A program made the position numbers and the translations under genes. This document shows positions 6,547-39,237 of a DNA stretch of 64,000 bases, piece after piece. Numbering within the stretch: position 1 is the first letter of the stretch; every line of letters starts with the position of its first letter. The notes beneath the pieces are model-generated. The model did no database searches and was not told the origin of the DNA. It saw only the letters and a list, made by a program, of their open reading frames with translations. This stretch comes from Candidatus Poribacteria bacterium (GTDB taxonomy: Bacteria; Poribacteria; WGA-4E; WGA-3G), in NCBI GenBank assembly GCA_012270795.1, contig JAAXHO010000197.1:41813-105812 (forward strand), given 5' to 3'.

Positions 6547-7014
6547 TCACGGCGGAGTCAACCCTAAAAACTGGTACGGATCAAGACCTGCTTCCTTCAT
6601 TTCAACGATCTTTATATCTCTCGGAACATCAAACATAAACAATTCTCTATCTACCCCGCGTTCAAATCTTGCTTTTTTCTTAGTTCTGACTCGCATACAA
6701 TCATCCGGATGCCCCAACATACCAGATATCCGTATTCTACCGAACACATAGAATACCCGTTCAATAATTTCCGGTTCGTCATCCCATTCAATATAAATCA
6801 TACCTTTGATGATCGGATACATCTTGCCATCATCGCCTCCCCACGTCCAACCTTTGACTTCATACCCTTTTTTGAATAGTTCAATCTCAAGGCGTAGTAG
6901 GAGTTCTCTGTCTAACTTGAGCGGCCACACTTCAACTGCCCGGAAACCTTCCGGGATTTCAGGATAGGGACCGAAACCGTGTGGCGAAACAGGCACATTT
7001 GCATCCTTTTTCAC
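6547..7014 (-). CDS. Hypothetical protein, member of an uncharacterised 'GFGPYPEIPE' family (paralog at 38470-39237)
   Basis: It shares SPHGFGPYPEIPEGF, YPIIKGMIYIEWDD and GLDPYQFLGL blocks with the 38470-39237 product. The GTG start overlaps (GTGA) the stop of an upstream 43-aa TM peptide ORF (7012-7143). Confidence 0.6.
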   Translation of the reverse strand: MKKDANVPVSPHGFGPYPEIPEGFRAVEVWPLKLDRELLLRLEIELFKKGYEVKGWTWGGDDGKMYPIIKGMIYIEWDDEPEIIERVFYVFGRIRISGMLGHPDDCMRVRTKKKARFERGVDRELFMFDVPRDIKIVEMKEAGLDPYQFLGLTPP

Positions 7015-7267
7015 GGTAACTTTTTGCGGTGTGTGATTTTAAGGATAGGATTGCTGACATCGCGGAAACCACAACCGATACAAAACGCCAACATCCACCC
7101 TATTCCGAAATATACCCATTTATGTGTTTTGATAAACATACAACACTCCTGCTTTTGTTTAGTGCATTTTTTACCAATAGTTGTGTGTAATAAATGCTTA
7201 TACCAATTCTAAAAATATTGTCTTATTAAGGAATTCCATTGTTTTGCTGGTTGGGGTGCATCTCTTC

Positions 7268-7311
7268 GGTAGGAGCGACCTCCTGGTCGCGACCGGGAGG
7301 TCGCTCCTACC
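7268..7311. repeat. Palindromic repeat, 'GTAGGAGCGACC...GGTCGCTCCTAC' family
   Basis: ggtaggagcgacctcctggtcgcgaccgggaggtcgctcctacc. Related copies lie at 22463-22508 and 22806-22848, and a half-site at ~40198. Confidence 0.75.
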
Positions 7312-7369
7312 AGATCTCCGCAGCCAATAAGAAATTATATCTTAGAAATGGTATTATTTCATAAAGGTA

Positions 7370-8746
7370 TTATGCATCTGGACGAGAAATATCATATTTG
7401 TTCATTTTTTTATAGAGGTTGCTTCTCTCAACTTCCAACACTTCTGCAGTTCTTCGGATATTCCAATCATTCTCTTTCAAAGCAGCAAGAATACACTCCG
7501 CTTCAGCAGAATCAACCATAGTGCTCAACGGTGTGTTAGACTGATATGTGGGTGCAGCATCCGCTATTTGTGCTGCATCTTTGTCAAGTGGTAAAACTTC
7601 AGCAACGTCGGTTGGTAAGATGATCTCTCTATTTACCATAATCAGCAGGCGTTCAACAATGTTTTTTAGTTCTCGGATGTTGCCAGGCCATTGGTAAGAT
7701 TGGAAAGTGGGGTATGCTTCTGAGGCAAAAGTTTTCGGTGCAGAAGCCATATTCATTTGCAGCTGCTCTGCAAAGCATTTTACCAATATTGGGATATCCT
7801 CTATACGTTCACGCAGAGGTGGCACGTCAATAGGTACAATTTTGAGGCGATAATATAGGTCGTTTCGGAACTGTCCCCGCTCAATTTCTGCTGGTAGGTT
7901 TTTATTTGTTGCTGCGATTATGCGGACATCAACATTGCGTATCTGCTGACTTCCGAGTCTCTCTACCTCGCCATATTCCAGCACGCGCAAAACTTTTGCC
8001 TGTGCCTTTAGGCTCATATCCCCAATTTCATCAAGGAAGAGCGTGCCACCGTCTGCCAGTTCAAACCGTCCCTGCCGCATAGAATCTGCCCCTGTAAATG
8101 CGCCGCGTTCATGTCCAAAAAGTTCGCTTTCGACGAGTTCTTCAGGTAATGCTGCACAGTTCAACGGGATAAAGGGTTTATCTGCCCGTTTGCTATACTG
8201 ATGAATTGCATTTGCTACCAGTTGCTTTCCAGTGCCGTTCTCACCAGAAATCAACACACCGAGATTGCTTGTTGCGACCTGACGGATTTCTGCTCGGAGT
8301 TTGTTCACAACGGGGCTCTTACCGATCATTTCATCTTCAATGCCAATTTGTGATTTCAGGATCTCATTTTCTTTGGCTAACCGCGAGAGTTCCAAAAACG
8401 GTTCTATATTGGATAGGATTTTGTCCATACTCACCGGTTTCGTTACATATCGCTTCGCGCCGAGTTCCATCGTTTTTGCGGCGATTTCGATATCCTGTTG
8501 TGCGGACATCATCACCACATGCAGCATGGGATGTCGTACCAGCATTTTCTGCAACGTCTCAACCCCATCCATACCATTCTCCATCATAATATCCAACAGC
8601 ACGAGGTCAATGTCACGAGATGCACAAAGTTGCAACGCCTTTTCTCCACTCGCTGCAGTCAAGGTTTCATAACCTTTGAGACTTAATCCTTGGGAAAGCA
8701 TTTTTAGTATATTTTTTTCGTCATCTACAATGAGGATCGTATTCAT
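7370..8746 (-). CDS. Sigma-54-dependent response regulator (NtrC family: receiver + AAA+ + Fis-type HTH)
   Basis: Receiver-domain start MNTILIVDDE, Walker A GENGTGKQLVA, GAFTGA motif (ERGAFTGA), and a C-terminal HTH. Confidence 0.9.
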   Translation of the reverse strand: MNTILIVDDEKNILKMLSQGLSLKGYETLTAASGEKALQLCASRDIDLVLLDIMMENGMDGVETLQKMLVRHPMLHVVMMSAQQDIEIAAKTMELGAKRYVTKPVSMDKILSNIEPFLELSRLAKENEILKSQIGIEDEMIGKSPVVNKLRAEIRQVATSNLGVLISGENGTGKQLVANAIHQYSKRADKPFIPLNCAALPEELVESELFGHERGAFTGADSMRQGRFELADGGTLFLDEIGDMSLKAQAKVLRVLEYGEVERLGSQQIRNVDVRIIAATNKNLPAEIERGQFRNDLYYRLKIVPIDVPPLRERIEDIPILVKCFAEQLQMNMASAPKTFASEAYPTFQSYQWPGNIRELKNIVERLLIMVNREIILPTDVAEVLPLDKDAAQIADAAPTYQSNTPLSTMVDSAEAECILAALKENDWNIRRTAEVLEVERSNLYKKMNKYDISRPDA

Positions 8747-8803
8747 ATTTTTTGCCTCTATATTGGAAAAGTCATTTTTTATTTACTCACGCCGCTCAAG
8801 TTT

Positions 8804-10759
8804 CTATTCCTGCGGTGTTGATTTTGTCACCAGTGGTATCAGCGCAGGTTGTGTATCATTAAGGTATGAAATTTCATCAAAAGTAATACATATTTTTGTT
8901 CCAACTTTCAGTTCCGATTCTACCACTATTTCTCCGCCGTGAACGGTAATAATTCGACGGACAATTGCCATGCCGAGTCCAGTACCATAAGGCTTTGTAG
9001 TGTAGTCCGGGGTAAAAAGGTTCTTCTGTGTCTCTTCAGACATGCCGTGTCCAGTATCTTGAACTTCCAAAGAGATATACCTACCCTTATTAGATATGGT
9101 GTTGCTCTGATTTTGTTCGTCAGTATTGCTACTCACGTTTTTGTCAGATATTGGTGTCGCATAAGTCCGCAAGGTAAGTGTCCCTCCATCTGGCATAGCC
9201 TCAATTGCGTTCTTCACAATGTTGCCGACTGAGCGTTCCATCTGTTCACGATCTAAAGAAAGATGTGGCAAGTCACCTAACTGTTTTTCAACAGTTATCT
9301 TTTGCGTCTGCGATAATTTTATGTATAACTTTAAAACGACTTCTACGATATCATTCAGATTCACTGGCTGTCGGTCAGGAACGGGTAATCTTGCATATTG
9401 ATGGAACTCATCTATTAGTCCACGTATACGGTCGACTTCTTCAATAATTGTATCCGTGCATTCTTGAAATATACTATCAAAGACTTCGGTTTTATCTTTT
9501 GCAGCTTGCAAATTCTCAACAGACAGTCGTATCGGAAAGAGTGGGTTTTTGACTTCATGCGCGAGTTGCCGTGCGACATCCCGCCACACAGCGATCCTTT
9601 CCGCTGTTCTATGTTCCTCCAAACTTCGCATTAATGCCTGCGCCATTTTATTAAATCCCTCTGCAAGTTCACCGACCTCTCCCTTAGATCGAACGTCAAG
9701 TTGATACGTAAGATTACCTGCACCGATCTCACTCACACCTTTCTGAAGTTGTGCGATTGGTCGTGTGATGCGTCTACTGACAAGGTAACTGCTGATGTAT
9801 ACAAGGAAAGCACCAGCACCGACACTCAACAGAATAATCATCCGCATGCGATCTTGCCAGAGAATGCGATCATCATGAGAATAGGCAATAATCAACTCTA
9901 CAAAAGGTAGTTGTTTTCTTTCAAAAAAAGGAGTGCTCAGAATGTCTGTGCGAACAACTGTGTAAGTGGGACTGTGGCGGTCCTTCTCTGGTACTTCTGT
10001 AGATGGTTGTTGTGGAATATCCTCTAAAGAGACGACCAAATCCTCAACGGGTTTTCCAGCTGCCGTATAAACTGTCATCTGCTGTTCCCATTTATCTTTT
10101 AACTCTAATCTATTCCCGGCGATATTGTTCAAGGGTATCCATTCCTCCTGTTCGTCCTTTTTTCGCACGAGAAAAATTGGATGTTCCGCGGGTTGGCTCA
10201 GCGATTCGCCTTCTAACCATTTTTGTAACGATCTTCCCCCTGTAACAAAACCCCAATCCCACCACTGTGTCACTTCAACGACCAACTGTGGTTCCTCACC
10301 TAAATTGATTACCCGTTCGCGAATAGTGCCTTTTCCCTGCTTGAACGTTTCATCTGTTTCGGCATGTGCGATCTCATGAATTTTGTACCCGATGTGTTTT
10401 TCATCAATCCGATTGCTGAGTACCAAAATTCCCTCATCATTACCGCATTCAAAGACATCAAAATCTGTTGTGGGAATATCCCGGATCCCCCCTCGTTCAG
10501 CTGTTCGCATCGCATTGAATACACCACGGTCTTCACCTGTTGTTTGTACCTGGTTGCGAATAGATTCTACGAAGAGCCTGTACAAATTGGAAATTGTTGT
10601 TTTTCTTTCTTCGACATCTTTGTCCAATTGCTCACTAAAAGTACGGTCTATGAGAAGACTCGCAATCCCAAAGATAATTGCAAACATGATCAGGAACACA
10701 AAACCGTAGGTAAAGAAAATCTTGTTTTGGAGCCGAAGCGAGGATAACCAGTAGAACAT
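8804..10759 (-). CDS. Sensor histidine kinase (two TM segments with a periplasmic domain, HisKA, HATPase_c)
   Basis: H-box HEVKNPLFPI and G-boxes DTGHGMS...GTGLGMAIV. It lies immediately upstream of the NtrC-type regulator on the same strand. Confidence 0.85.
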   Translation of the reverse strand: MFYWLSSLRLQNKIFFTYGFVFLIMFAIIFGIASLLIDRTFSEQLDKDVEERKTTISNLYRLFVESIRNQVQTTGEDRGVFNAMRTAERGGIRDIPTTDFDVFECGNDEGILVLSNRIDEKHIGYKIHEIAHAETDETFKQGKGTIRERVINLGEEPQLVVEVTQWWDWGFVTGGRSLQKWLEGESLSQPAEHPIFLVRKKDEQEEWIPLNNIAGNRLELKDKWEQQMTVYTAAGKPVEDLVVSLEDIPQQPSTEVPEKDRHSPTYTVVRTDILSTPFFERKQLPFVELIIAYSHDDRILWQDRMRMIILLSVGAGAFLVYISSYLVSRRITRPIAQLQKGVSEIGAGNLTYQLDVRSKGEVGELAEGFNKMAQALMRSLEEHRTAERIAVWRDVARQLAHEVKNPLFPIRLSVENLQAAKDKTEVFDSIFQECTDTIIEEVDRIRGLIDEFHQYARLPVPDRQPVNLNDIVEVVLKLYIKLSQTQKITVEKQLGDLPHLSLDREQMERSVGNIVKNAIEAMPDGGTLTLRTYATPISDKNVSSNTDEQNQSNTISNKGRYISLEVQDTGHGMSEETQKNLFTPDYTTKPYGTGLGMAIVRRIITVHGGEIVVESELKVGTKICITFDEISYLNDTQPALIPLVTKSTPQE

Positions 10760-10792
10760 AATTTAAGCATATCTCATTTATTCAATTAGCAC

Positions 10793-12226
10793 TTAACGCC
10801 TTTGCATGCTGCGTGCAATTTCTTCAGTGCGTTTTTTATATCCTTCAACTGCTGATTGATGGTAGGTCAACTCTTCCGCAAGCGTCGGAACGCCGTCGGT
10901 AAGGTGTAGTTCCTGCAATCGACCTTTCACTGCAACCGTATCCATGAGAGTTCGCATCAATTGGCATACATTTCGAATATCACGTCGAGGTAGGGTTAGC
11001 GTCACATTCGGAATGCCATTTTCGGTAAAGTCTGCCTCAGTGCCACGATAAGATGCCGTTTGGCAATCGTTCAATGAGAGGCCTTCAAACGCTTCTAATT
11101 CATTACCTTCATTTGTCTTTGGAATTGTTAGGTCTGCCCCGAGGTCTTCCCAATGGATAAAGACAATTGCCTTTTCCTTTGGTCCAGCGAGAATTCCGTT
11201 GAGGATGGAGTGGCTACTTGTCGGACCTTTCGCAGCAATCACATTGGAACCGATGTTGCGATCCTGAATAGATTCGATATAAAGTTGCACAAACCACTCT
11301 CCAAGTCTGATGTTGTCTGCATAGTTATAGAAAACGATGCTACCGGCCCCGTAGTATTTCTCAACAGAGTCAAGCCATAATGCCAGATGGTATGCAGTGT
11401 TGTGGGGGTGTGCATAAGGCAGCTGAAAATTCTTATCTGCATGTTGGGCACCCTCAACCGCTGCGTTTACCCTATCTTTCGGTGTCTCTCCTGCACCTGC
11501 TGTCATCGCCAAAAAGAACAAACCGACAGGTGAAAAGGCAGAGAAGCGACCACCGACTCCTTCTGGGACTGGAAGAACACCATACAATTCAGATTCTTGA
11601 TGTAATTGATAGAGAAGGCTTTTTGATGTCAATCCGGTCGTTGCGATAATCTGTTTTCGCCAGTTTACAACTTCTTTCTGGAGTCTGTCTTTGATAATCA
11701 TTAGCGTTGCGAGCGTTTCACCTGTTTGCCCCGATTTGCTAACCACATTGAGAAGCGTTTTGTGAAGTAAGTTGCGAGACTTTAGCATCTCAAGTAGTGA
11801 TTTAAGCCGAATCGGATCAAAGGTATCCCCTGTAAAATAGACCTCTGGTGAACCACCTCTTTCAGAACTTGACAACAGGTTGTGATACGGATGATTAGCG
11901 ATTTCGTGAAACACGCGCGCGCTCAAATCGGAAGCACCGATGCCAACAGTCACAAGCACAGAGAAATCATCTCTCGCTTTAGTGGATAACTCAAGCACAT
12001 CTTGAATATGTTCTGTTTGGAGATGACTACGTGTCCACACCCGCAAATACTGTTTTAATAGGGACAGTGGAGCACCCTCCTCCTCCCTGAATAGCGTCTG
12101 GATTTCCTCCAAACGCGTATCAACCAAGGATTCTTTATCTTCTGACTCTGTTTCTGCGCAAACAAGCATTCTGAGTCTTATGCCGGAATCGTCTCCAAAC
12201 TCTATCTGTTTTACCGCTGAATTCAT
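10793..12226 (-). CDS. pgi: Glucose-6-phosphate isomerase
   Basis: The PGI signature VGGRFSAFSPVGL and the overall pattern are present. The start is moved to MNSAVKQ, which has a strong GGAGG RBS. The longer annotated ORF includes an unlikely leader. Confidence 0.8.
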   Translation of the reverse strand: MNSAVKQIEFGDDSGIRLRMLVCAETESEDKESLVDTRLEEIQTLFREEEGAPLSLLKQYLRVWTRSHLQTEHIQDVLELSTKARDDFSVLVTVGIGASDLSARVFHEIANHPYHNLLSSSERGGSPEVYFTGDTFDPIRLKSLLEMLKSRNLLHKTLLNVVSKSGQTGETLATLMIIKDRLQKEVVNWRKQIIATTGLTSKSLLYQLHQESELYGVLPVPEGVGGRFSAFSPVGLFFLAMTAGAGETPKDRVNAAVEGAQHADKNFQLPYAHPHNTAYHLALWLDSVEKYYGAGSIVFYNYADNIRLGEWFVQLYIESIQDRNIGSNVIAAKGPTSSHSILNGILAGPKEKAIVFIHWEDLGADLTIPKTNEGNELEAFEGLSLNDCQTASYRGTEADFTENGIPNVTLTLPRRDIRNVCQLMRTLMDTVAVKGRLQELHLTDGVPTLAEELTYHQSAVEGYKKRTEEIARSMQRR

Positions 12227-12245
12227 TATTTCCTCCAAATATTTA

Positions 12246-12623
12246 CTATTTTGTTCTTCCATATTTGTCATCAATACGGACAATGTCTTCCTCGTCAAAG
12301 TTACCAAAAGCGATTTCAAGTATCCTATAGTCTTTGTCTTCGCCAATAAGTTGATGTTTCGCACCTTGAGGAATAAAGACTGGTTCCATCGGATTAGGAT
12401 GTAGTATCTCATCTTCAAGCCGAATACACGCACCTTCGTCAAGAGGTATCCATAATTCACTACGATGATGATGGTATTGATAACTCAACTGTTCACCTGC
12501 GTGTACCTCCAATATCTTGACGGTTACTGGTTGGTTATGGACGTACTGCGTAAAACGCCCCCAAGGCTTTTCGGTTGTCAATATTTCTGCTAACACTTTG
12601 TTCGTGTCTTTTATAGAAGGCAT
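12246..12623 (-). CDS. Cupin-domain protein, mannose-6-phosphate isomerase type II-like
   Basis: EKPWGRF...VKILEVHAGEQLSYQYHHHRSELW matches the conserved cupin core of phosphomannose isomerase type II C-terminal domains. Confidence 0.65.
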   Translation of the reverse strand: MPSIKDTNKVLAEILTTEKPWGRFTQYVHNQPVTVKILEVHAGEQLSYQYHHHRSELWIPLDEGACIRLEDEILHPNPMEPVFIPQGAKHQLIGEDKDYRILEIAFGNFDEEDIVRIDDKYGRTK

Positions 12624-12713
12624 CTGTTCTCTGTGCGGGTCATCAACACCAGCGTTTTTTGCAATAGTTTAGCACACTTCAAGAGGTAAGACAAGCACAA
12701 AAACTACAACCTA

Positions 12714-12796
12714 TCTCATAAATCGTAGGAGGGGTTTCTAACCCCGATTTACCGGACATGAAACCCGTGAATTTGGACAAAATTACATTTATGAGA
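12714..12796. repeat. MITE-like 83-bp element with 10-bp terminal inverted repeats (TCTCATAAAT...ATTTATGAGA) and a GGAGGGGTTTCTAACCCCGATTT core
   Basis: Near-identical copy at 44078-44161. Confidence 0.8.
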
Positions 12797-12881
12797 TACG
12801 CTGTAAAAAAGAAGTGTAAGTTTTCGGCATGTGTGTTGTCTGAATAATGTCTCGTCGCAGGTTTTTGTTGCTTAATTTGAC

Positions 12882-13115
12882 TTGAAAAATATTAACGAAG
12901 GAGATACAATTATGGAAACGAACATCTTACGTCCTATTCTTGAATTAGTTCTCATTTTGATGTGTGCAACGCTTCTGATCGGTTTTTTCATTATGATTGA
13001 TTCAATACCGACAGGACAATCCCAACCAGACGACTCTATATCGGAAAAACAGGAACCCCCTTACTGTCCAAAATCAAATCTACCACCCCGTTGCCCGCGC
13101 GAGGCAGGAAACTGA
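12882..13115 (+). CDS. Small hypothetical membrane protein
   Basis: 77-aa ORF with one hydrophobic segment and a weak RBS (GAAGGAG). Low confidence. Confidence 0.25.
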   Translation: MKNINEGDTIMETNILRPILELVLILMCATLLIGFFIMIDSIPTGQSQPDDSISEKQEPPYCPKSNLPPRCPREAGN

Positions 13116-13129
13116 AGGAAGAATTTGAG

Positions 13130-13705
13130 ATGTTATTCTTGAGAAAACACACTTATTTGATACTCGGTTTGCTTGTTGGGTTGGTACTATCATTGGTAAT
13201 TCTTACACAACGCAAACAACCGCAGCAGGAAAGGAGGAACCAACACGTGGAACGGAAAAAACCTGCTCAGACTCCACATTCATCGCAAAATCAACGTGGG
13301 AAGACACGCGGAAACGTAGGGCACTCCCATTCACATAGTCACGAACGGAGAGAATGGCAACCTCTTCCACAAGAAGTCAGGAATCAACTTAAAGCGTTAC
13401 GACTTCAGTATAAAGATAAGGTGCTCAGAACAATTACATTTGAATCCAGGGACTTTGGGACATTTGACTATACGATGTATCCAGATGAGTTTAATGAAAA
13501 AGAATTGGAAATCTTATGTGGTGATATGGACCCTGAACAAGCAACTGACTATCTATTGTCAGTTGGTGTCTGTAGTCCTGCACTTCTTAAACGTTTGGAC
13601 TCCGTATCTGCCTTTCAATACTTAAAAGCGTTAGGTCATAGTCCTGAATCACGTGAATATACGGAACGTGTCATTGCAGAAAATCCTGGCACCGATTGCA
13701 CTTGA
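13130..13705 (+). CDS. Membrane-anchored protein, probably the N-terminal part of the following TPR protein (frameshift near 13695)
   Basis: TM anchor MLFLRKHTYLILGLLVGLVL, then a basic/His-rich linker. The 3' end reads ...RVIAENPG, and the overlapping +1 frame continues PIALEAKYYLADAL as in the next ORF. Confidence 0.45.
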   Translation: MLFLRKHTYLILGLLVGLVLSLVILTQRKQPQQERRNQHVERKKPAQTPHSSQNQRGKTRGNVGHSHSHSHERREWQPLPQEVRNQLKALRLQYKDKVLRTITFESRDFGTFDYTMYPDEFNEKELEILCGDMDPEQATDYLLSVGVCSPALLKRLDSVSAFQYLKALGHSPESREYTERVIAENPGTDCT

Positions 13706-15072: not shown

Positions 15073-15227
15073 GTTTCTATTGGTGCAATAATGGCAATGG
15101 TGGGTGTTTCCACAGCGGTCGTGAAGATACTTGGCATGCAGAGTAGAGGCATTTTGTAACAAATAACTCGTGAAAGGCAGGTATCTTTTTCCAGTACCTG
15201 TCTATTCTCAATTAGGAGAGATTCATC

Positions 15228-15707: not shown

Positions 15708-15861
15708 GTTAATGGTAAAACCTTCCATAGATGTATTCAGCATTGATTCACAGGAAACGATACAGCGAAAATAAAGAGATAACTCAGAAATTGAATGTTT
15801 CTGGACAATGCCAAAAAAAGTTTTGACAAAAATATTTTAATCTGATATTATAATTTTTTAA

Positions 15862-16619: not shown

Positions 16620-16657
16620 ATCTACAATTGAAACATTCCTGTATGTAATATAAAAAG

Positions 16658-17590: not shown

Positions 17591-17637
17591 ACCTTGATTA
17601 AATAAAACAAAAACCCTTTGGAAAGGATTGTCCCTTC

Positions 17638-19345: not shown

Positions 19346-19348
19346 GAG

Positions 19349-19392: not shown

Positions 19393-19403
19393 TGCAACGA
19401 ACC

Positions 19404-22462: not shown

Positions 22463-22508
22463 CTGTAGGATCGATCTCCTGGTCGTGACAAGGAGATCGA
22501 TCCTACAA
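22463..22508. repeat. Palindromic repeat (GTAGGAtCGAtC variant of the 7268 family)
   Basis: ctgtaggatcgatctcctggtcgtgacaaggagatcgatcctacaa. Confidence 0.7.
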
Positions 22509-22805: not shown

Positions 22806-22848
22806 CTGTAGGAGCGACCTTTGGTCGCGACCAGAGGTCGCTCCTACC
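22806..22848. repeat. Palindromic repeat (GTAGGAGCGACC family)
   Basis: ctgtaggagcgacctttggtcgcgaccagaggtcgctcctacc. Confidence 0.75.
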
Positions 22849-30857: not shown

Positions 30858-30876
30858 GACTGTTCACCATCCATAA

Positions 30877-31518: not shown

Positions 31519-31521
31519 TTC

Positions 31522-32298: not shown

Positions 32299-32362
32299 CT
32301 CTAACTCCTTTGTAGTAGTAAAATTATACGGATTGATAATAAACCTTGTATGTTTACATAAG

Positions 32363-32454
32363 ATGCACAAACTGGAAGTTTATGCTACATAAGGCGCACA
32401 ATCTAACAGATCATGCTACATAAGATGCACAAACTGAAAGTTTATGCTACATAA
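32363..32454. promoter_or_regulatory. Two copies of a conserved palindromic upstream element (CACAAACTGRAAGTTTRTGCTACATAAG), 65-155 nt upstream of the LamG gene
   Basis: atgcacaaactggaagtttatgctacataag at 32363-32393, again at 32424-32454, and a partial third copy between them. The same element lies ~85-90 nt upstream of the minus-strand genes starting at 46461 and 54346. Confidence 0.5.
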
Positions 32455-32517
32455 GTTCTGTAGTTGATTTTCCATATTAGAATTTTGAAATCTCAATTTC
32501 TTTCGCAGTAATAAACT

Positions 32518-32778
32518 CTAAAAGTGCAGGGGTACCTTCCTTTGTTTTTTAGATACCGCGCGCTGGATAGCAGGTATAATTTGGTCTGGTGTTTCAACGC
32601 GTTCGCTATAACCCCCGAATGCTTTAGCCATATCTGCGTAATTACCGGAGATGTCTGTACTGCGGTATTTTTCAGTTGATACGGGCATAATCGAAATCTC
32701 AATTGCCATGGAGAAGTTGTTAAAATGCACAGATCCTCCTGTCTTTAGGACCTTGGCGACCGCATCAACAACTTTCAT
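32518..32778 (-). pseudogene. Remnant encoding only the C-terminal ~85 aa of a thiamine-pyrophosphate-dependent enzyme (acetolactate-synthase-like)
   Basis: GGSVHFNNFSMAIEI...YADMAKAFGGYSERVETPDQIIPAIQRA resembles the C-terminal TPP-binding region. There is no upstream remainder, because the PhyH gene ends 10 nt away. Confidence 0.4.
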
Positions 32779-32787
32779 GAGTTTCTC

Positions 32788-33627
32788 CTAAGGATTGGTA
32801 GGACTTCCCGCGTCCATCACAAGCGGAAAATGATCACCCGCCAATTTGTCACCATCATTGACTGTGACAAATTGTTTCATCACATGATTGCCACTTGCAT
32901 CGTAAAGGGTCTCACTTGTCATATAATGGACGGCTATAGCACGACGAGGTTGACCACTGCTGTTAGCGTGTGAGCCGTGCCACGTCAATGAATGATGGAA
33001 ATGCACATAGCCTTTTGGCACTGGACATAACTCAACTTCTAACTCATGTTCTTCAAAGCGATTCGGCATAGAATAGATGTCCTTGACAGAATGGAGAAAG
33101 GCAATTTGATTGCCCCAGTGGTAGGACCCTGGTACCATCCGCATACATCCATTACTTTCGTCGACATCGTCTAATGCGACCCAAGCGGTGACTTGGCTGG
33201 TTTTCGGCGTAAGAATGGGCCAGTAGGGTGAATCTTGATGCCACATGTTCACGCCGCCTACTTCGGGTGGTTTGTATTGTATTTGGTCGTGCCACACACG
33301 CACCTCTGTAGCAGATGTGAGTTGCCCAATTTCCTCAACAATAATAGGGTTATGAACCAGTTTTTGATAGGCGGGACTTGCCTCCCAGATATTCACTATT
33401 TGCCAAACCGGTGTATCTTCTCTACCACCGAGATTTACAATGTGTACCGGTTGCGGAATACCCTCTTTTTTGTAATCATCTATGACACGTGCCAATTCTG
33501 ATCGTAATTCATCTACCTGTTCATCGTTCAAAACACGACTTCCAAGCAGAAAGCCCTTTTCAAGAAACGCCTGGATTTGGGCTTGGTTTAGCATATTTGT
33601 CTCCCATAGATTTTTTGTCTTACGCAT
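32788..33627 (-). CDS. Phytanoyl-CoA dioxygenase (PhyH) family Fe(II)/2-oxoglutarate oxygenase
   Basis: WHQDSPYWPI (HxD), a later His (VPGSYHWG), and PhyH-like overall length. Confidence 0.75.
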   Translation of the reverse strand: MRKTKNLWETNMLNQAQIQAFLEKGFLLGSRVLNDEQVDELRSELARVIDDYKKEGIPQPVHIVNLGGREDTPVWQIVNIWEASPAYQKLVHNPIIVEEIGQLTSATEVRVWHDQIQYKPPEVGGVNMWHQDSPYWPILTPKTSQVTAWVALDDVDESNGCMRMVPGSYHWGNQIAFLHSVKDIYSMPNRFEEHELEVELCPVPKGYVHFHHSLTWHGSHANSSGQPRRAIAVHYMTSETLYDASGNHVMKQFVTVNDGDKLAGDHFPLVMDAGSPTNP

Positions 33628-33730
33628 TATAGCATTTTTATTGGCTTATGTCAACGTATAGATTTGTGGGGGTGTGTAAAGATAAAAACCTTGCCATAGG
33701 TGTCAATTTAGGAGCTACTCTACCCTATTT

Positions 33731-33808
33731 CCCTCTTGTTGGCGGGGTTTCTACCCCGATAGCAGAGGGGAATGGCATAAAATCGGGGTTAGAAACCCCT
33801 CCAACAAG
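33731..33808. repeat. Inverted-repeat element of the GGGGTTTCTAACCCC family (degenerate left arm)
   Basis: cctcttgttggcggggtttctaccccgat...aaaatcggggttagaaacccctccaacaagag. Confidence 0.7.
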
Positions 33809-33886
33809 AGTTTCATTTCTTAAATTGATACCTATGGTAAAGATAAAAACCTTGCAGGTTGGAAAATTCATTGCTATAATATACAC

Positions 33887-34729
33887 ATGTCATTGTTTGA
33901 AGCGATTTTACTTGGTATTTTACAAGGTCTCACTGAATTTCTTCCCATTAGCAGTTCTGGGCACCTCGTCTTAGCGCAACAATTGCTCGGATTGAAAGAA
34001 ACTCTTTTATTTTTTGATGTGATGTTGCACGTTGGCACATTAGCTGCTGTGCTTGTTGCATATCGTCAGGCAATAGGAAGGTTAGTTGTTGGAGGGTTAT
34101 CATCGCTTGGGGAGATACGGTTCTATAAGAATCCGATGAGAGGTATCAACGAGTCGGTTGAACTCAGGTTTATTTGGTTAATACTGCTCGGTTCTATTCC
34201 GACTGGCATCATTGCTGTGCTGTTTAAGGAGCAGTTGGAGTCCTTCTTTGGTGAGGTAAAACTTGTTAGTATCATGCTCATTGTAACTGGTATCATCCTT
34301 CAATTGCCACGACTGAGAAAACAGGATGCCGATAGTCTTGGTACTGACCTAGATAAGATAAAATGGTGGCATGCGTCGCTTGTTGGTATTGCACAAGGTT
34401 GTGCTATTACACCGGGGATCTCGCGTTCTGGATCGACGATTTCCCTCGCGCTTTTTTTGGGTATTCCAGCTAAGACTGCAGCGGAATACTCTTTTCTTCT
34501 TTCAATTCCTGCGATTCTTGGGGCAGTCGTCCTCAAAATTAAAGACATTGGAGACACTGCTATACCTTTGTATATTTTAGCGGTTGGTATGTTTGCATCT
34601 TTTCTGGTTGGCTATATTGCTTTGCGTTTGCTGTTAGTGATGCTAAATCGTGGAAAATTCTCTGTGTTTACGTATTACTGTATTGCCTTAGGACTCGTGG
34701 CATTCCTTGTTTCCCTAAACATCAGATAG
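33887..34729 (+). CDS. uppP: Undecaprenyl-diphosphatase (UppP/BacA)
   Basis: The N-terminal motif ILQGLTEFLPISSSGHL and 8-TM topology are present. Confidence 0.9.
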   Translation: MSLFEAILLGILQGLTEFLPISSSGHLVLAQQLLGLKETLLFFDVMLHVGTLAAVLVAYRQAIGRLVVGGLSSLGEIRFYKNPMRGINESVELRFIWLILLGSIPTGIIAVLFKEQLESFFGEVKLVSIMLIVTGIILQLPRLRKQDADSLGTDLDKIKWWHASLVGIAQGCAITPGISRSGSTISLALFLGIPAKTAAEYSFLLSIPAILGAVVLKIKDIGDTAIPLYILAVGMFASFLVGYIALRLLLVMLNRGKFSVFTYYCIALGLVAFLVSLNIR

Positions 34730-34902
34730 AATGTGTATGGTCTCCAGTCCTGCACTTATTCTAAAACAACTTTATGTTTACTCAACGTGACTTCAGATAT
34801 AAAAATGGAACAGGTGAGCAGTGTTATCCCTAAACACCTTGTTTTTGAATGCTACATGTTCTGCACATTGTGAAAATACACACGTAGACAATATTCATAA
34901 AA

Positions 34903-34945
34903 AATGGCAGGTATCCAAAAAAGGAAACCTGCCTGTAAATAGAAT
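34903..34945 (-). terminator. Rho-independent terminator for the 34959-36033 gene
   Basis: On the minus strand: GGCAGGT-ttcctttttt ggat-ACCTGCC followed by ATTTTTT. Confidence 0.55.
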
Positions 34946-34958
34946 AAGAAAGTAGAGA

Positions 34959-36033
34959 TTATTTCTCGTCGCGTTGCAACTGCTTGATAACCGAGTCAGC
35001 AAAGTCACGATCCCAAAAGCGTGCAATGCTTTCTTTCACGATGGAGATTTCTTCTTGTGATGCTTTTGAGGATAACATCTTACGAACCGTTGAAACGACT
35101 TCGTTTTGCATGCGTTTTTGACGTGATTGTAACCACGCTTTTGACGCATCATCGGGGAAGTATTTATCAAATTCCTCTTGAGACAGCATCGGAACAAATA
35201 CCGTTTCAGGATATTCTTCATAAGTTTTTAGCCATAAGTCTGTCACTTGAGATACTAATAAAGAAGGTTCTTTTTGAACGGGAGACGTGGTTTGTTGTGG
35301 AGCAATAGGGGCTGCCTCCTGTTGCGGGGGAGTAATATCCTGCGATGTATCGGATTCCCGTTTATCCTCGTCTTTAGGGATATAAATAGGATTTCCCGCA
35401 TCGTCCTTTTCAAATCCTATCGGTTTGCCGTTTTCATCATATATCAGAATCGCACCTTTTGCTTCTTCTTCATAGAGACGCGCGGTGGCTTTGTTACGCA
35501 CCCTCTCTATAAAGTTGTTAAATCTTTCATCCATCCTTTTGACCTTCGCTTCATATTGTTGATGTTGTGCGCGCAACTCATCTATGCTCATTAAATCAGC
35601 TTTCGCTATCTCTTCTCTAACGCGCCGTTGCACCTCTGGAGGAAGCGAATTCAAATGATCCTCCATTGCATCAAGTTTTTCTTCAGCAGATAATTTACCA
35701 AATTCTTCTAAATGTTTTTCTAAATTCTTATCAAAATCAGCAATGTGTTTCATACGTTGAGCGTTTATTTTTCGGAATGCCGCAGTTTCTTTATCACTTT
35801 TCGCCTTAATTTCTTCCCAAATACGTTTCTCGCGTGCAGGTCTATCTGCTTCCCAGGCACGTATGTGTTGTTGCCATTCTTCAAATGTCCATTCTTCTAT
35901 CGGTTTCATGGGGCTCTTCGGAACATTCACTGAGACTTGCTTGCTATCACGATAATTTGTAATCAACAGACCTGCAGCAAGGATGCAGATCAATACAGAT
36001 ACGATTATCGCTATTTTGACACCTTTTTTCATG
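34959..36033 (-). CDS. Hypothetical membrane-anchored coiled-coil protein
   Basis: The start is reassigned to MKKGVKIAIIVSVLICILAAGL (signal anchor, AGGAG RBS 8 nt upstream). The body is highly charged and helical with no recognisable domain. Confidence 0.55.
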
Positions 36034-36397
36034 ATCAGTTCTCCTCTAAAATATTGGATACAGCAGGAAGTAAAACCCTGCTGTAAACGTTTGTCGGCTT
36101 CAAGATCTGCTTTATCCTCGTCAAGCGCACTAATATTTTTTAATATTGACTCAACGATTTGATTGGCATCCATTGCATCTGTTAAATCTTCCCACCATGT
36201 TTCCACCCCATCTCTATTCCATTTGCCACGCTTCTTCGCATCAACTTCATCTGGAATACCATTGATTTCTACACAACACTAAGGAATATCTGGAGAAAAT
36301 AAAAAATGTGTGTAAAGCATTCCTTTATGCACTAATTCTAAAACATCCTGATGTTTTACTCAATATGACTTCTTTCATCAAACATCAGTAACAATTG

Positions 36398-37897
36398 CTA
36401 CCAACGGGTATAGAGTAGCACCTCTGAGATGATGAGTTGAAGGACAAGCAAACCTGCAACCCAGAAAAAATCACGTTTGGAACGCGTTGTGAGGTATTTT
36501 GCAACGGGAATGACAAAAAACGGCACCATGAAAATCCAGATACGTTCCACCTCCATCGTGAACCAAGTTGAGAATGTGAAATAGAGTAGCGTTATTAGGA
36601 AACCGATGATAAAAGTATCCGACTTGTCATGACGTAATATCCAAGGTGTGCGGGTTGTTGCCTGTTCTGATGCTGGGACTGTTGTGTTTTGTTTCCATTC
36701 CTTGAATGTTTTTACAAGTTGACGCAGCCAGACAGTTGTTATTGGAATACCTACCCCCATCAAGAATGCAAAGAGATTCGCTATACTCAAATAAAAATAG
36801 AGATCAAGTCTATGGTAACCTGTTCCTCCCATACCCTGTTCATCTCTTTTAATAGATGCCCAAAGTGCTTCAAAGGGTTGGAAACCTGTGAGTATGAACA
36901 ATAGCACGTAGAATCCAACGAATCCGATAGAAGCATATAACAACATCTTTAGGTATTGCTTAAACCGGTATCTCTCTAATAATGCAATAACGCACAGAAA
37001 GACCCCAATTACCACCGTTGAATAGGTCATAAACATCCCGAGTGCAAGCGAAAGGCCTGTTAGGAGACTATAAGGACGAAATTTTGTCAATGCGGTTTCT
37101 GGATCAATTTCCTTGTGTCTTGCTTCGTAAAACAGGTAGAGACTGAGAATTGGAAACACGCTAAAAGGTCCGTCCATAGATGTCGTTGTAAACATGACAA
37201 AGTTTGGTGTGACAAGGAATAGCAGCAATGCGCAAAGCGCGACCTTCTGATCGTATAGACGTTCCGCGAGTTTATAGATAGGGACGATGACGAGTGTGGT
37301 GAAAAGAACTGATGCCAACGATGCGGATATAAGATTGTAACCAAATACTTTGCTGACAATCCATAGGAAGACAACACCTCCTGGCGGATGGGTGCGTGTA
37401 TGTCCAGTTAGCGTATCAAACAGATAAGGTTTGCTAAAATCACGCAAAAATGTACGGAGACCGATTTCCTCTAAACGGGGTACATCCTCGTAGTATTCCA
37501 ATCCTGATCGTGTGTAAGGATAGAAAAGTGTCAAAATCTGTTCATTTTCTATTTCGCGGAAACCATCAATTTGCGCGACGCTGATATTGATAGCAATGAA
37601 GCACACAAACGCAATCAATATCAACTTGCGGTAACTGATGTTGTTTGAATGGATATATCTATAGCAAAGAAAGAGGAAACCTATGCATATAACAAGGGCG
37701 GGAAGAATCCACAAACTCAGATTGACTTCAGGTATGGCATAGTATGGGACGAAGTCTCTGCGGTGCTTTACTGCCCCCAGCGAGAGACTTGCTTCGCGCA
37801 TAATGATTACCATTATCTTGTGGTATAACAAGAAAAACAGCGCGACTATAAAAACTTGCCCAATTATAGATCTGATTGCTTTTTGAAAGTATTGCAT
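36398..37897 (-). CDS. Polytopic membrane protein, putative GT-C family glycosyltransferase (PMT_2/ArnT-like)
   Basis: About 12 predicted TM segments. The first periplasmic loop carries DVPRLEEIGLRTF...THPPGGVVF, resembling the acidic loop and 'EKPPL'-type motif of GT39/GT83 enzymes. Confidence 0.5.
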   Translation of the reverse strand: MQYFQKAIRSIIGQVFIVALFFLLYHKIMVIIMREASLSLGAVKHRRDFVPYYAIPEVNLSLWILPALVICIGFLFLCYRYIHSNNISYRKLILIAFVCFIAINISVAQIDGFREIENEQILTLFYPYTRSGLEYYEDVPRLEEIGLRTFLRDFSKPYLFDTLTGHTRTHPPGGVVFLWIVSKVFGYNLISASLASVLFTTLVIVPIYKLAERLYDQKVALCALLLFLVTPNFVMFTTTSMDGPFSVFPILSLYLFYEARHKEIDPETALTKFRPYSLLTGLSLALGMFMTYSTVVIGVFLCVIALLERYRFKQYLKMLLYASIGFVGFYVLLFILTGFQPFEALWASIKRDEQGMGGTGYHRLDLYFYLSIANLFAFLMGVGIPITTVWLRQLVKTFKEWKQNTTVPASEQATTRTPWILRHDKSDTFIIGFLITLLYFTFSTWFTMEVERIWIFMVPFFVIPVAKYLTTRSKRDFFWVAGLLVLQLIISEVLLYTRW

Positions 37898-38027
37898 TAA
37901 CTTACGTCTATTGTAATTCCGGTCCTATATCCTTGACACAACGAAACCCAAAATCATATTAAGTATACATAGATTAAGTCAAAATCTCAAGGAAATTTTA
38001 GATATCAGACAAATTTTTTGAAAAAAG

Positions 38028-38062
38028 TTTGACACTCATAAAAATTTGTGATATAATACTTC
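38028..38062 (+). promoter_or_regulatory. Near-consensus sigma70 promoter (TTGACA-17 nt-TATAAT)
   Basis: ttgacactcataaaaatttgtgatataat. The nearest downstream plus-strand gene begins ~400 nt away at 38470. Only tiny ORFs (17 and 31 codons) lie in between. Confidence 0.5.
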
Positions 38063-38469
38063 AAGGAATGATGTAGATTGATAATGAAATCTGCGTCACC
38101 GTTTTTATACTGTTTTTCATACTTGGGGAGAAGATGAAATTGCTAACCAAAAAGAAACACACCCGTTATTTATCTGATCCAGAATTTTGTAAGTGCAATA
38201 CAGTCGCTCATTTTATTAACTATAGGTTAGTCCATACCCCCCCCGTTTGTTAATATTTCTAATTTGCTTTTACAGAAATTCGTGTTTGCAATATTTTCGT
38301 ACCCGCACTTTTCGTCGCGGGTTATTGTTGTTGCATTGAATAACATTCATCAATTACCCTACAAGATTTGATGCTGATATTGTGATGCAAGTTACTTCTT
38401 ATTCAATCCACTTATTATGGTCAGGATTGAAGACATGTTTAATTAGCATATTGATATAAGGATAAACAA

Positions 38470-39237
38470 ATGTATTGGGATGTTTTAGTTGATAAGTGGT
38501 TCATCCGGATTTTGATTTTTTGCATAATTTGTTCCATTGGAATTTTACTCTGGCAACAAAATGATATGGCAAAATTCAATAAAAAGATGGAAGCACATGA
38601 CGCATTCATTGCAAAATTAGAAAATGAAAAAAATGATACTAAGCAAATAACAGATCGAACTATCACAACTGGAGAAATAGAACATGACGAATGGAATGAA
38701 AATGAAGAATCAACATTCGTCAATGTGGATGTTGAAAAAGTACCCGACTTTGCGACAAAAATGATACAAGACGATGATACAACAGATACATCTTCGTTTA
38801 AAGTATCGACCCCTCAGGTAAGTGTTTCTCCTTACGGGTTTGGTCCCTATCCTGAGATCCCAGAGGACTATCCCGGATACCCATTTAACAATATGTCTGC
38901 AAACCATGAACTAATTGCACGTGTTAAAATAAAGTTGTGGAAACAAGGTATACGGAGTAGTGGTGGCATAATAAGAAACGGATTGGTCTATCCCATTATT
39001 CCTGGGAAGGTATATGTTGAATGGAAGGAGTTTACAAAACCAGATGGTACGGTGGTCAAAACCCCAACTCGAATTCTTGGGGACCCTGACGATTTACCAC
39101 GTAGTAACGAAAGTCTACTAGAAGAGGTAATACGGGAAATGAAAGGGATACCAAAAGTGATAGATCTTCCTTCTCACTTAGAAATTTTAAGCTTTGATGA
39201 GGGGATTGACCCGTATGACTTTTTAGATTTACAATAA
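38470..39237 (+). CDS. Hypothetical membrane-anchored protein of the 'GFGPYPEIPE' family (paralog of 6547-7014)
   Basis: An N-terminal TM anchor, then SPYGFGPYPEIPEDYPGY, YPIIPGKVYVEWKE and GIDPYDFLDL blocks shared with the 6547-7014 product. Confidence 0.6.
   Translation: MYWDVLVDKWFIRILIFCIICSIGILLWQQNDMAKFNKKMEAHDAFIAKLENEKNDTKQITDRTITTGEIEHDEWNENEESTFVNVDVEKVPDFATKMIQDDDTTDTSSFKVSTPQVSVSPYGFGPYPEIPEDYPGYPFNNMSANHELIARVKIKLWKQGIRSSGGIIRNGLVYPIIPGKVYVEWKEFTKPDGTVVKTPTRILGDPDDLPRSNESLLEEVIREMKGIPKVIDLPSHLEILSFDEGIDPYDFLDLQ

What the first reader, a model, noticed from the sequence alone, without database searches (positions are those of the whole stretch)
6547..39237. Two paralogues of an uncharacterised 'GFGPYPEIPE' protein family, each embedded in a surface-structure locus
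The products of 6547-7014 and 38470-39237 share three conserved blocks (SP(H/Y)GFGPYPEIPE(G/D)(F/Y), YPII.G..Y(I/V)EW, G(L/I)DPY(Q/D)FL(G/D)L) but are otherwise diverged. One sits beside the prepilin peptidase/GspG-like genes under an NtrC-type regulator and is translationally coupled to a 43-aa TM peptide. The other sits in the glycosylation locus and has its own TM anchor. I do not recognise the family. Its repeated co-localisation with envelope machinery suggests a periplasmic accessory function.
Basis: seen in the sequence. Interest (0 to 1): 0.5.

Follow-up and report, generated by a model that had tools for sequence, protein, structure and literature searches.

The report
Poribacteria-only membrane-tethered domain with exported partner
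The two genes are real paralogues of a large, undescribed protein family found only in the sponge-symbiont phylum Poribacteria: a membrane-anchored periplasmic domain with no known relatives, usually co-encoded with a fast-evolving secreted partner rather than tied to the pilus or glycosylation genes beside it here.

Summary

The family is large: 547 clusters at 50% identity. All 80 best genomic loci come from Poribacteria-type MAGs, with several copies per genome.

The canonical member has a very short N-terminus, one TM helix, an acidic disordered spacer of conserved length (median 86 aa) and a 140-aa C-terminal alpha/beta domain.

The conserved neighbour is not envelope machinery. It is a tightly coupled downstream gene for a signal-peptide protein that evolves much faster (58% of copies against 9% of controls). 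In the window this is 39251-40147.

- **Copy 2** is an intact cassette.
- **Copy 1** is a decayed solo copy. Its "TM peptide" is the family's own anchor, cut off by a stop/frameshift; the spacer and partner are gone.

Pseudopilin, prepilin-peptidase and PMT_2 genes occur near none of 82 other loci.

The function is inferred: an inner-membrane tether that docks or holds its exported partner, or a constant envelope ligand.

The parts
38470..39237 (+). Copy 2: intact canonical family member (255 aa). The TM anchor is about aa 10-28 (38497-38553), the polar/acidic spacer aa 29-116 (38554-38817) and the C-terminal domain aa 117-255 (38818-39234).
   Evidence: The ORF is. The N-terminal anchor HMM scores E=2.6e-15 and the domain HMM E=1.2e-48. 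It is 55-57% identical to Poribacteria members L086 and L070.
39238..39250 (+). 13-nt intergenic junction. The TAA stop of copy 2 is followed directly by AGGAG, then 8 nt, then the ATG of the partner gene.
   Evidence: Sequence read. The same -11..+38 nt spacing occurs in 61 of 105 family genes.
39251..40147 (+). Partner gene: a 298-aa exported protein. It has a signal peptide MKKLTIFLNIALIFGFTTVVFS, then LRGPENNRASNRD, a beta-rich core and a low-complexity G/S/N tail. It belongs to the fast-evolving partner family.
   Evidence: It is 37% identical (E=2e-35) to the partner in the syntenic Poribacteria locus L086 and lies in the 40-member single-linkage partner cluster. The partner HMM scores E=2.6e-46 and this is its only hit in the window. 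No Pfam hit. The AF2 model was unusable, pLDDT 35.
6547..7014 (-). Copy 1: the C-terminal domain only (155 aa from GTG 7014, or 149 aa from GTG 6996). It has no TM anchor, no spacer and no partner gene downstream. It groups with the '...GLTPP' subfamily.
   Evidence: best relatives 44-52% identical and 240-255 aa long. Domain HMM E=2.9e-46. AF2 model pLDDT 87, pTM 0.76.
7011..7139 (-). 42-aa ORF (MFIKTHKWVYFGIGWMLAFCIGCGF...) with AGGAG 6 nt upstream. It is the severed N-terminal TM anchor of copy 1. Its TGA overlaps the GTG of the domain ORF, which is in a different frame.
   Evidence: It ranks second of 661 window ORFs against the family N-terminal HMM, E=0.01, directly after copy 2. Sequence. 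The stop/overlap is identical in 4 independent assemblies.
7268..7311 (.). REP-like palindrome (16-bp perfect stem) between the sigma54-activator gene and copy 1. It is a likely transcript boundary.
   Evidence: There are 3 copies in the window against 0.11 expected. The RNA fold is -46.8 kcal/mol, z=-7.5.
38029..38057 (+). Perfect sigma70-type consensus promoter (TTGACA-17-TATAAT with TG), about 410 nt upstream of copy 2. It is a candidate cassette promoter, unproven.
   Evidence: 12 of 12 matches. No Rfam family in the leader.

Best explanation
**What is shown.** Both ORFs belong to a large, previously undescribed family that appears restricted to Poribacteria. Members are bitopic envelope proteins with:
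- about 8 cytoplasmic residues and one TM helix;
- an acidic, disordered spacer of conserved length (about 86 aa);
- a 140-aa C-terminal alpha/beta domain (VSPHGFGPYPxxP ... YPIIKG..YVxW ... GHPDD ... GIDPYxFL) with no sequence or fold relative.

The usual unit of inheritance is a two-gene operon. The family gene is followed within a few nucleotides by a gene for a Sec-exported protein that evolves much faster.

**What is inferred.** The family protein is an inner-membrane tether. Its C-terminal domain, held out in the periplasm on the spacer, docks or holds the co-expressed exported partner. It may do so through one of the partner's few conserved motifs, such as the C-terminal [IV]P[WF]. The logic would resemble a private membrane-anchored chaperone or receptor (Lif-lipase, LptC-LptA). 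The high copy number and rapid divergence point to a variable envelope or surface repertoire in these sponge symbionts.

**In this window.**
- Copy 2 plus 39251-40147 is an intact cassette.
- Copy 1 is a decayed solo copy. Its anchor is severed by a stop/frameshift, and the spacer and partner are lost. It is therefore probably no longer exported.
- Its position beside pseudopilin and prepilin-peptidase genes is incidental.
For: **Family and distribution**
- Homology between the two copies: E=1e-21.
- 62 close clusters and 547 representatives at 50% identity, 464 of them at E<=1e-10.
- 195 confirmed genomic stretches. The best 80 come from 43 assemblies: 73 are named Poribacteria and 7 are 'uncultured bacterium' MAGs, with up to 6 loci per genome.
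- The window's GcpE is 91% identical to that of a Poribacteria MAG.

**Architecture and fold**
- Architecture from alignment A1. The spacer has a median of 86 aa, IQR 82-90, and is rich in E/T/A/D/K/Q.
- Extracytoplasmic location: the domain also occurs C-terminal to signal peptides in fusions with CarboxypepD_reg plus C-type lectin, TPR/YfiO-like, and TPR plus Redoxin.

**Partner**
- 61 of 105 unique family genes are followed at -11..+38 nt by an ORF with a hydrophobic N-terminus, against 40 of 452 control ORFs. Fisher p=2e-26.
- Partners form one loose family.
- Cassette co-inheritance: Mantel Pearson r=0.69, with 3 of 2000 permutations reaching it. The partner diverges much faster (mean normalised similarity 0.066 against 0.385).
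- In the syntenic pair window/L086, the family gene is 55% identical, the partner 37% and the adjacent STT3-like gene 75-77%.

**Copy 1 decay**.
Against: - No binding, localisation or expression data exist. The docking role is inference from gene order and architecture.
- About 40% of family genes have no adjacent partner, and the three fusion architectures checked also lack one. The domain can therefore work, or at least persist, without a dedicated partner.
- The domain is far more conserved than the partner, and among distant pairs their divergences do not correlate (Spearman 0.05). This fits a constant ligand better than a co-evolving specific interface.
- The partner structure could not be modelled (pLDDT 35).
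- The AlphaFold database could not be searched, so fold novelty is tested only against PDB and BFVD.
- Copy 1 keeps every conserved motif and an open frame, so it may be recently decayed or still functional.
Confidence: 0.5

Rival explanations
1. Partner-independent envelope anchor. The C-terminal domain binds a constant envelope component (peptidoglycan, an outer-membrane or S-layer component). The protein would then be an inner-membrane-to-wall strut, or in fusions a C-terminal targeting module. The downstream exported gene is merely co-transcribed.
For: - The domain is highly conserved while partners are hypervariable.
- About 40% of copies are solo.
- In secreted lectin, TPR and redoxin fusions the domain is almost always at the extreme C-terminus, and these have no partner gene.
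- The spacer length is tightly conserved (IQR 82-90 aa) without sequence conservation, as expected for a distance ruler.
Against: - The 58% against 9% enrichment of a tightly coupled exported-protein gene and cassette co-inheritance need another explanation.
Confidence: 0.25
2. One reading: a periplasmic accessory factor of the neighbouring envelope machinery. That machinery is the pseudopilin / type II-type IV system for copy 1 and protein or lipid glycosylation for copy 2.
For: - Adjacency in the window.
- For the copy-2 subfamily only, an STT3-like gene lies within 6 kb in 3 other loci. In L086 it is directly downstream of the partner.
- A chimeric ORF (P0094) joins a copy-2-like domain to the STT3-like periplasmic domain, 85% identical to the window gene.
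Against: - Homologues of the prepilin peptidase, the GspG-like gene and PMT_2 occur near 0 of 82 other family loci.
- Neighbourhoods are otherwise diverse: ABC/DUF6785, a 584-aa ORF, transposases and housekeeping genes.
- In a close relative, the family genes next to GcpE lack the glycosylation genes (L077).
- Copy 1 is a truncated copy without an export signal.
Confidence: 0.08
3. Polymorphic effector-immunity cassette. The exported partner is a toxin or effector, and the membrane-tethered domain is a periplasmic immunity protein. Tandem arrays would be orphan immunity or effector remnants.
For: - Tandem arrays hold full-length family genes next to truncated partner fragments (L002: 73-aa and 47-aa remnants plus one 480-aa partner).
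- There are many solo copies.
- Evolution is rapid and transposases are frequent neighbours.
Against: - Partners carry no toxin or trafficking domain (Pfam scan of 48 partners; PADLOC).
- The putative immunity gene is the more conserved of the two and lies upstream, the opposite of typical systems (from general knowledge of CDI, Rhs and T6SS loci).
- No secretion-system genes recur nearby.
Confidence: 0.08
4. Copy 1 is not decayed but is a functional split version. The 42-aa membrane peptide and the 149-155-aa domain would be made from overlapping, translationally coupled ORFs, or rejoined by a frameshift at the A-run.
For: - The GTGA overlap, and a Shine-Dalgarno sequence before the peptide ORF.
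- The arrangement is identical in 4 independent assemblies, with one non-synonymous SNP.
- All family-invariant residues are retained and there is no internal stop.
Against: - The four assemblies are one near-identical population, so they give no evidence of selection.
- As encoded, the domain has no export signal, whereas every other architecture places it outside the cytoplasm.
- The spacer (median 86 aa elsewhere) and the partner are missing.
Confidence: 0.15

Closest known systems
Lipase-specific foldase Lif (LipH/LimA; Pfam Lipase_chap) with its lipase. This is an analogy recalled from general knowledge, not a database hit.
   Same: It is a bitopic inner-membrane protein with an N-terminal TM anchor, a flexible linker and a periplasmic C-terminal domain. 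It is encoded in a tight operon with the Sec-exported client it holds.
   Different: - No sequence or fold similarity. The predicted fold here is alpha/beta, and there is no Pfam hit.
- The gene order is reversed.
- The client has no lipase or other known domain.
- There are many paralogous cassettes per genome and many solo copies.
LptC-LptA (recalled analogy)
   Same: A TM-anchored periplasmic protein is followed immediately by the gene for a signal-peptide protein that docks onto it.
   Different: - LptC and LptA share a beta-jellyroll fold, are single-copy and conserved, and have no long disordered spacer.
- Here the two genes are unrelated to each other and to Lpt proteins.
Periplasm-spanning tethers TonB / TolA / FtsN (recalled analogy)
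   Same: They have a very short cytoplasmic N-terminus, a single TM helix, a long low-complexity spacer and a small C-terminal globular domain.
   Different: - No TonB_C, TolA_C or SPOR homology.
- The spacer is acidic and Thr/Ala-rich rather than Pro-rich.
- No ExbBD or TolQR genes recur nearby.
Polymorphic toxin-immunity arrays
   Same: Tandem arrays, orphan copies, truncated second genes and fast evolution.
   Different: - No toxin, trafficking or immunity family was detected.
- The conservation pattern and gene order are opposite to the typical case.

Membership tests
Any curated protein family (Pfam-A, NCBIfam, PHROGs, PADLOC) | A profile HMM match at or near the curated threshold | tested here: not met
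   Copy 1 has 0 Pfam hits at E<=1. Copy 2 has only TM or low-complexity noise at 11 bits against cut-offs of 27-30. The NCBIfam and PHROG hits are noise and PADLOC gives none. Precomputed Pfam is '-' for all 62 relatives.
Any solved structure or fold (PDB, BFVD) | Significant sequence-profile or structural similarity | tested here: not met
   - The profile against PDB gives a best hit of E=0.0013, 22 bits, to Old Yellow Enzyme. I judge this spurious, because OYE is a TIM barrel and the fold searches give it no support.
- Foldseek against PDB: best E=2.8.
- BFVD: best E=1.4.
- AFDB was not searchable.
Lif-type membrane-anchored foldase | N-terminal TM anchor, linker and periplasmic domain | tested here: met
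   Alignment A1 and the spacer statistics. Met by copy 2 but not by copy 1.
Lif-type membrane-anchored foldase | Homology to the Lipase_chap domain, and an adjacent lipase client | tested here: not met
   No Pfam hit for the family or for 48 partners.
Type II secretion / type IV pilus component (pseudopilin or accessory) | A prepilin leader (G/FTLIE-type N-terminus), or conserved linkage to GspG, prepilin peptidase or other T2SS/T4P genes | tested here: not met
   The family N-terminus is MxRDIxxxKW-TM. There are 0 of 82 other loci with homologues of the window's GspG-like gene or peptidase A24.
TonB / TolA / FtsN-type tether | A C-terminal TonB_C, TolA_C or SPOR domain, and a cognate motor or divisome context | tested here: not met
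   No Pfam or fold match. No recurring ExbBD or TolQR neighbours.
Membrane-bound anti-sigma factor | A cytoplasmic N-terminal anti-sigma domain before the TM, and an adjacent ECF sigma gene | tested here: not met
   Only about 8 residues precede the TM helix. No sigma-factor cluster appears among the recurrent neighbours.
sigma54-dependent operon under the adjacent NtrC-type activator | A -24 GG / -12 GC promoter upstream of the gene | tested here: not met
   No match of at least 8 of 12 positions, with GG and GC at the correct spacing, within about 385 nt upstream of copy 1 or 570 nt upstream of copy 2. Good matches exist in only 2-3 other loci: L003 12/12, L059 11/12. An activator gene lies immediately upstream in about 6 other loci, so regulation of some paralogues remains possible.
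Polymorphic toxin-immunity pair | A recognisable toxin or trafficking domain in one gene, and a cognate variable immunity gene downstream | tested here: not met
   No domain in the partners and no PADLOC hit. The conserved gene lies upstream.
Partner as a small outer-membrane beta-barrel (C-terminal aromatic beta-signal) | A C-terminal F or W with alternating hydrophobic residues, 8 or more amphipathic strands, and an OMP family match | tested here: inconclusive
   14 of 56 partners end in [IV]P[WF]. No OMP Pfam family matches, the sequences are very polar, and the AF2 model is unusable.

The most novel reading that the evidence does not exclude
A phylum-specific envelope system. Dozens to hundreds of paralogous 'tether + hypervariable exported ligand' cassettes give Poribacteria a variable periplasmic or surface repertoire. 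The conserved new-fold domain would recognise a short conserved motif on otherwise fast-diverging partners, for example the C-terminal [IV]P[WF]. The repertoire could mediate recognition by, or evasion of, the sponge host or phages.
Probability: 0.2. Interest if true: 0.75.

Novelty: categorically new. Interest (0 to 1): 0.5.

Why it matters
Poribacteria are abundant, uncultivated sponge symbionts, and little of their lineage-specific gene content has been explained. This work defines three things:
- a new domain, with no sequence or structural relative in the libraries searched;
- its true genomic partner;
- its expansion: at least 547 clusters at 50% identity, several copies per genome, and faster evolution than the neighbouring genes.

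Membrane-tethered proteins paired with rapidly diversifying exported proteins are typical of host, phage or kin interfaces. The cassette is therefore a concrete, testable candidate for symbiosis-related envelope variation.

For annotation it corrects two tempting errors. It removes the link to the adjacent pilus, secretion and glycosylation genes, and it shows that the 42-aa 'TM peptide' is a gene fragment rather than a new small protein.

Tried and rejected
1. **Profile libraries.** Pfam, NCBIfam, PHROGs and PADLOC gave nothing.
2. **PDB profile search.** The only hit was a 22-bit match to Old Yellow Enzyme, rejected as spurious.
5. **Partner similarity.** Direct BLAST between the window partner and the L002 partner found nothing. 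The relationship appears only through intermediates and an HMM.
6. **sigma54 control.** No promoter lies upstream of either window copy. Enrichment across loci is weak: 2 strong sites against about 0.4 expected.
7. **Extra copies.** A search for additional copies or a partner remnant near copy 1 found none.
8. **Co-evolution beyond co-inheritance.** There is no signal among distant pairs.
9. **RNA element.** Rfam finds nothing in the long leader of copy 2 or anywhere else in the window.
10. **Literature.** No description of the family, and the sample identifiers returned nothing relevant.
11. **Partner as an outer-membrane barrel.** Considered and left inconclusive.
Full report
**1. Observation**

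ORFs 6547-7014(-) (155 aa) and 38470-39237(+) (255 aa) exist as described. They align at 36% identity over 146 residues, E=1e-21, and contain the three quoted blocks. A domain HMM finds only these two copies in the 64-kb window.

The neighbours are also as stated:
- Beside copy 1: peptidase A24, a T2SSG-like pseudopilin, a receiver/sigma54-activator/HTH_8 regulator and a HAMP histidine kinase.
- Around copy 2: PMT_2, STT3-like, GT2, methyltransferase and BacA.

**2. The family**

Neither protein matches any Pfam, NCBIfam, PHROG or PADLOC model.

- A word-indexed search found 62 unnamed relatives. One is labelled a hypothetical protein of Candidatus Poribacteria.
- An exhaustive HMM search with a domain-only alignment found 547 representatives at 50% identity, 464 of them at E<=1e-10.
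- A scan of one genome per GTDB species found 195 confirmed stretches. The 80 best loci come from 43 assemblies: 73 loci are named Poribacteria and 7 are 'uncultured bacterium' MAGs. One chromosome holds up to six separate loci.

The window itself is poribacterial. Its GcpE is 91% identical, and a neighbouring gene 81% identical, to those of Poribacteria MAG jk18xAbins.19. No paper in the held library describes the family.

**3. Architecture**

The canonical member is 240-255 aa. It has about 8 N-terminal residues (MxRDIxxxKW), one TM helix, a spacer and a 140-aa C-terminal domain.

The spacer has no sequence conservation, but its length is tightly conserved (median 86 aa, IQR 82-90). It is rich in E, T, A, D, K and Q.

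The domain carries nearly invariant Gly, Pro and aromatic positions (VSPxGFGPYPxxP, YPxIxG..YVxW, GHPDD, GIDPYxFL) and only a few invariant polar residues (Ser, Glu, Arg). That pattern looks structural or binding rather than catalytic.

Rare variants place the same domain at the C-terminus of proteins that start with a signal peptide. They carry CarboxypepD_reg plus C-type lectin, YfiO-like TPR (with or without WD40), or TPR plus Redoxin modules. The domain therefore works outside the cytoplasm.

**4. Fold**

With a 63-sequence alignment, AlphaFold2 gives a confident model (pLDDT 87, pTM 0.76). It has an extended Pro/aromatic N-terminal segment, then helix, four strands, helix, strand and short C-terminal helices.

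It has no neighbour in the libraries I could search:
- Foldseek against PDB: best E=2.8.
- BFVD: best E=1.4.
- The PDB profile search gave only a 22-bit match to Old Yellow Enzyme, which I regard as spurious.

The AlphaFold database library was unavailable, so the claim of a new fold is limited to solved structures and viral models.

**5. The real conserved neighbour**

Across 105 unique family genes in the fetched loci, 61 are followed at -11 to +38 nt (mode 10-13 nt, six with ATGA-type overlaps) by an ATG ORF with a hydrophobic, signal-peptide-like N-terminus. For 44 of them the ORF is at least 140 aa. Among 452 control ORFs of at least 200 aa in the same loci, the rate is 8.8% (Fisher p=2e-26).

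These downstream proteins form one loose family. 40 of 64 fall in a single BLAST-linked cluster, and they can be aligned. They have no Pfam domain.

Their conserved features are few:
- the signal peptide;
- short motifs such as LRGPxxGRxxNRD or (D/E)xKKA(N/T) just after it;
- D-x-D-W-[WF] in the core;
- in 14 of 56 of them a C-terminal [IV]P[WF], including members of BLAST-unlinked clusters;
- in some, C-terminal CxxC and repeated beta-rich extensions.

Window ORF 39251-40147 is such a partner. It starts 13 nt after copy 2, behind an AGGAG. It is 37% identical (E=2e-35) to the partner in the syntenic locus L086, and it is the only window hit of a partner HMM (E=2.6e-46).

The cassettes are inherited as units. 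The Mantel Pearson r is 0.69, reached by 3 of 2000 permutations. The partner diverges far faster, with mean normalised similarity 0.066 against 0.385. Among distant pairs the two divergences are uncorrelated.

In the window/L086 orthologous pair, the family gene is 55% identical, the partner 37% and the adjacent STT3-like gene 75-77%. Both cassette genes therefore evolve faster than their surroundings.

Tandem arrays occur. L002 has four family genes, one 480-aa partner and two truncated partner remnants.

About 40% of family genes are solo. The fusion variants also lack a partner.

**6. Context census**

Within +-6 kb of 82 other loci, the counts are:

| Window gene | Other loci with a homologue |
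|---|---|
| Prepilin peptidase | 0 |
| GspG-like gene | 0 |
| PMT_2 | 0 |
| GT2 | 1 |
| STT3-like gene | 3 |

In L086 the STT3-like gene lies directly downstream of the partner. In L025 and L078 it lies a few kb upstream in other arrangements.

The recurrent neighbours reflect orthologous positions of different paralogues. They are a DUF6785/ABC pair (11 loci), a 584-aa ORF (10 loci) and a sigma54 activator immediately upstream on the same strand in about 6 other loci.

A -24/-12 scan finds no element upstream of either window copy, and only two strong sites across all family upstream regions against about 0.4 expected. In the window, a 16-bp-stem REP-like palindrome (three copies in the window; -46.8 kcal/mol, z=-7.5) lies between the activator gene and copy 1.

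Co-localisation with pilus, secretion or glycosylation machinery is therefore not a family property. A link to the STT3-like gene is possible for the copy-2 subfamily only.

**7. Anatomy of copy 1**

Its closest relatives are 240-255-aa proteins. Copy 1 has only the domain.

The 42-aa ORF just upstream (7011-7139) has a good Shine-Dalgarno sequence. It matches an HMM of the family's N-terminal anchor, ranking second of 661 window ORFs (E=0.01), directly behind copy 2. Its TGA overlaps the GTG of the domain ORF in another frame, at an A-rich tract.

So the anchor and the domain of one ancestral gene are now separate. The roughly 86-aa spacer is deleted, and there is no partner gene.

The same arrangement appears in four independent assemblies, which differ by one SNP. 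It is not an assembly error, but those assemblies represent one population and say nothing about selection.

As encoded, the domain lacks any export signal. I therefore read copy 1 as a decaying solo copy, and I estimate about 0.15 probability that it still functions as a split or frameshift-rejoined protein.

**8. Mechanism**

*Shown:* paralogy; family size and lineage restriction; the anchor-spacer-domain architecture; extracytoplasmic placement; the absence of known relatives; the tightly coupled exported partner; the relative evolutionary rates.

*Inferred:* the protein is an inner-membrane tether. Its domain is held out in the periplasm on a spacer of fixed length, where it docks or holds the co-expressed exported partner, perhaps through one of the partner's few conserved motifs.

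The main rival is that the domain binds a constant envelope component and does not need the partner. Three observations favour that rival: the solo copies, the fusions, and the contrast between a conserved domain and a variable partner.

I rate the alternatives as follows:

| Reading | Probability |
|---|---|
| Tether plus partner (includes the possibility of an additional constant ligand) | ~0.5 |
| Partner-independent anchor | ~0.25 |
| Accessory to the neighbouring machinery | ~0.08 |
| Effector-immunity pair | ~0.08 |
| Enzyme acting on the partner | ~0.05 |

**9. Comparison with known systems**

In logic it resembles three known kinds, all recalled from general knowledge:
- membrane-anchored private chaperones such as Lif with its lipase;
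- LptC-LptA;
- periplasm-spanning tethers such as TonB, TolA and FtsN.

It is a member of none. Every homology-based defining feature that I tested failed.

**10. Verdict**

This is a real, non-artefactual finding. It is an undescribed lineage-specific domain family with an apparently new fold, and I identify a conserved two-gene cassette here.

Interest is moderate (0.5). The family is large, fast-evolving and specific to an ecologically important uncultivated symbiont phylum. Its function remains inferred, however, and lineage-specific orphan families are common.

Noticed in passing
window 40382-42774 (+): The STT3-like oligosaccharyltransferase is split into two overlapping ORFs (329 aa and 501 aa). 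Related Poribacteria loci have a single ORF: 805 aa in L086 (75-77% identical), 806 aa in L078 and 714 aa in L025. This is a frameshift, pseudogene or local error around 41269-41371.
   Followed up: partly
window 38029-38098 (+): A perfect sigma70 consensus promoter (TTGACA-17-TATAAT with an extended -10 TG) is followed immediately by an 11-bp hairpin plus T-run, about 410 nt upstream of copy 2. The long leader has no Rfam match.
   Followed up: partly
window 7268-7311, 22464-22507, 22807-22848: A REP-like palindromic element (stem GGTAGGAGCGACCTCC) occurs three times against 0.11 matches expected by chance. The copy at 7268-7311 folds at -46.8 kcal/mol (z=-7.5).
   Followed up: partly
window 47829-54146 (-): Nine sigma54-like -24/-12 matches (TGGCA..N..CTTGCA) cluster inside three large repeat-containing ORFs (47037-54346). 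At least the first two are homologous to WD40-repeat proteins in other loci. They look like recurring codon strings of the repeats, not promoters.
   Followed up: no
window 1857-2336 (-): An IS200-like Y1 transposase gene. IS605-family TnpB and other transposase genes also lie next to family genes in several Poribacteria loci (L003, L005).
   Followed up: no
P0094; loci L095-L097: This is a chimeric 481-aa ORF seen in three assemblies. It joins a partner-type signal peptide, a copy-2-like domain and the periplasmic C-terminal domain of the STT3-like protein (85% identical to window 41269-42774). It suggests a rearrangement-prone locus.
   Followed up: partly
window 6058-6513 (-): The GspG-like pseudopilin has an atypical leader and N-terminus (MGKTLIKLIILVV...). 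Lys replaces both the usual Phe at +1 and Glu at +5 of the G/FTLIE motif.
   Followed up: no
partner genes in loci L028, L042, L064, L065, L068, L073, L075-L078, L081, L083, L085, L087: Partner proteins from BLAST-unlinked clusters share an extreme C-terminal [IV]P[WF] (occasionally followed by 1-2 residues) and an internal D-x-D-W-[WF] motif. These are possible docking or sorting signals.
   Followed up: partly
L070 1817-6480; L067: Tandem duplication of a three-gene unit (sigma54 activator, family gene, partner). The second copy keeps only a 121-aa activator fragment and a truncated partner.
   Followed up: no
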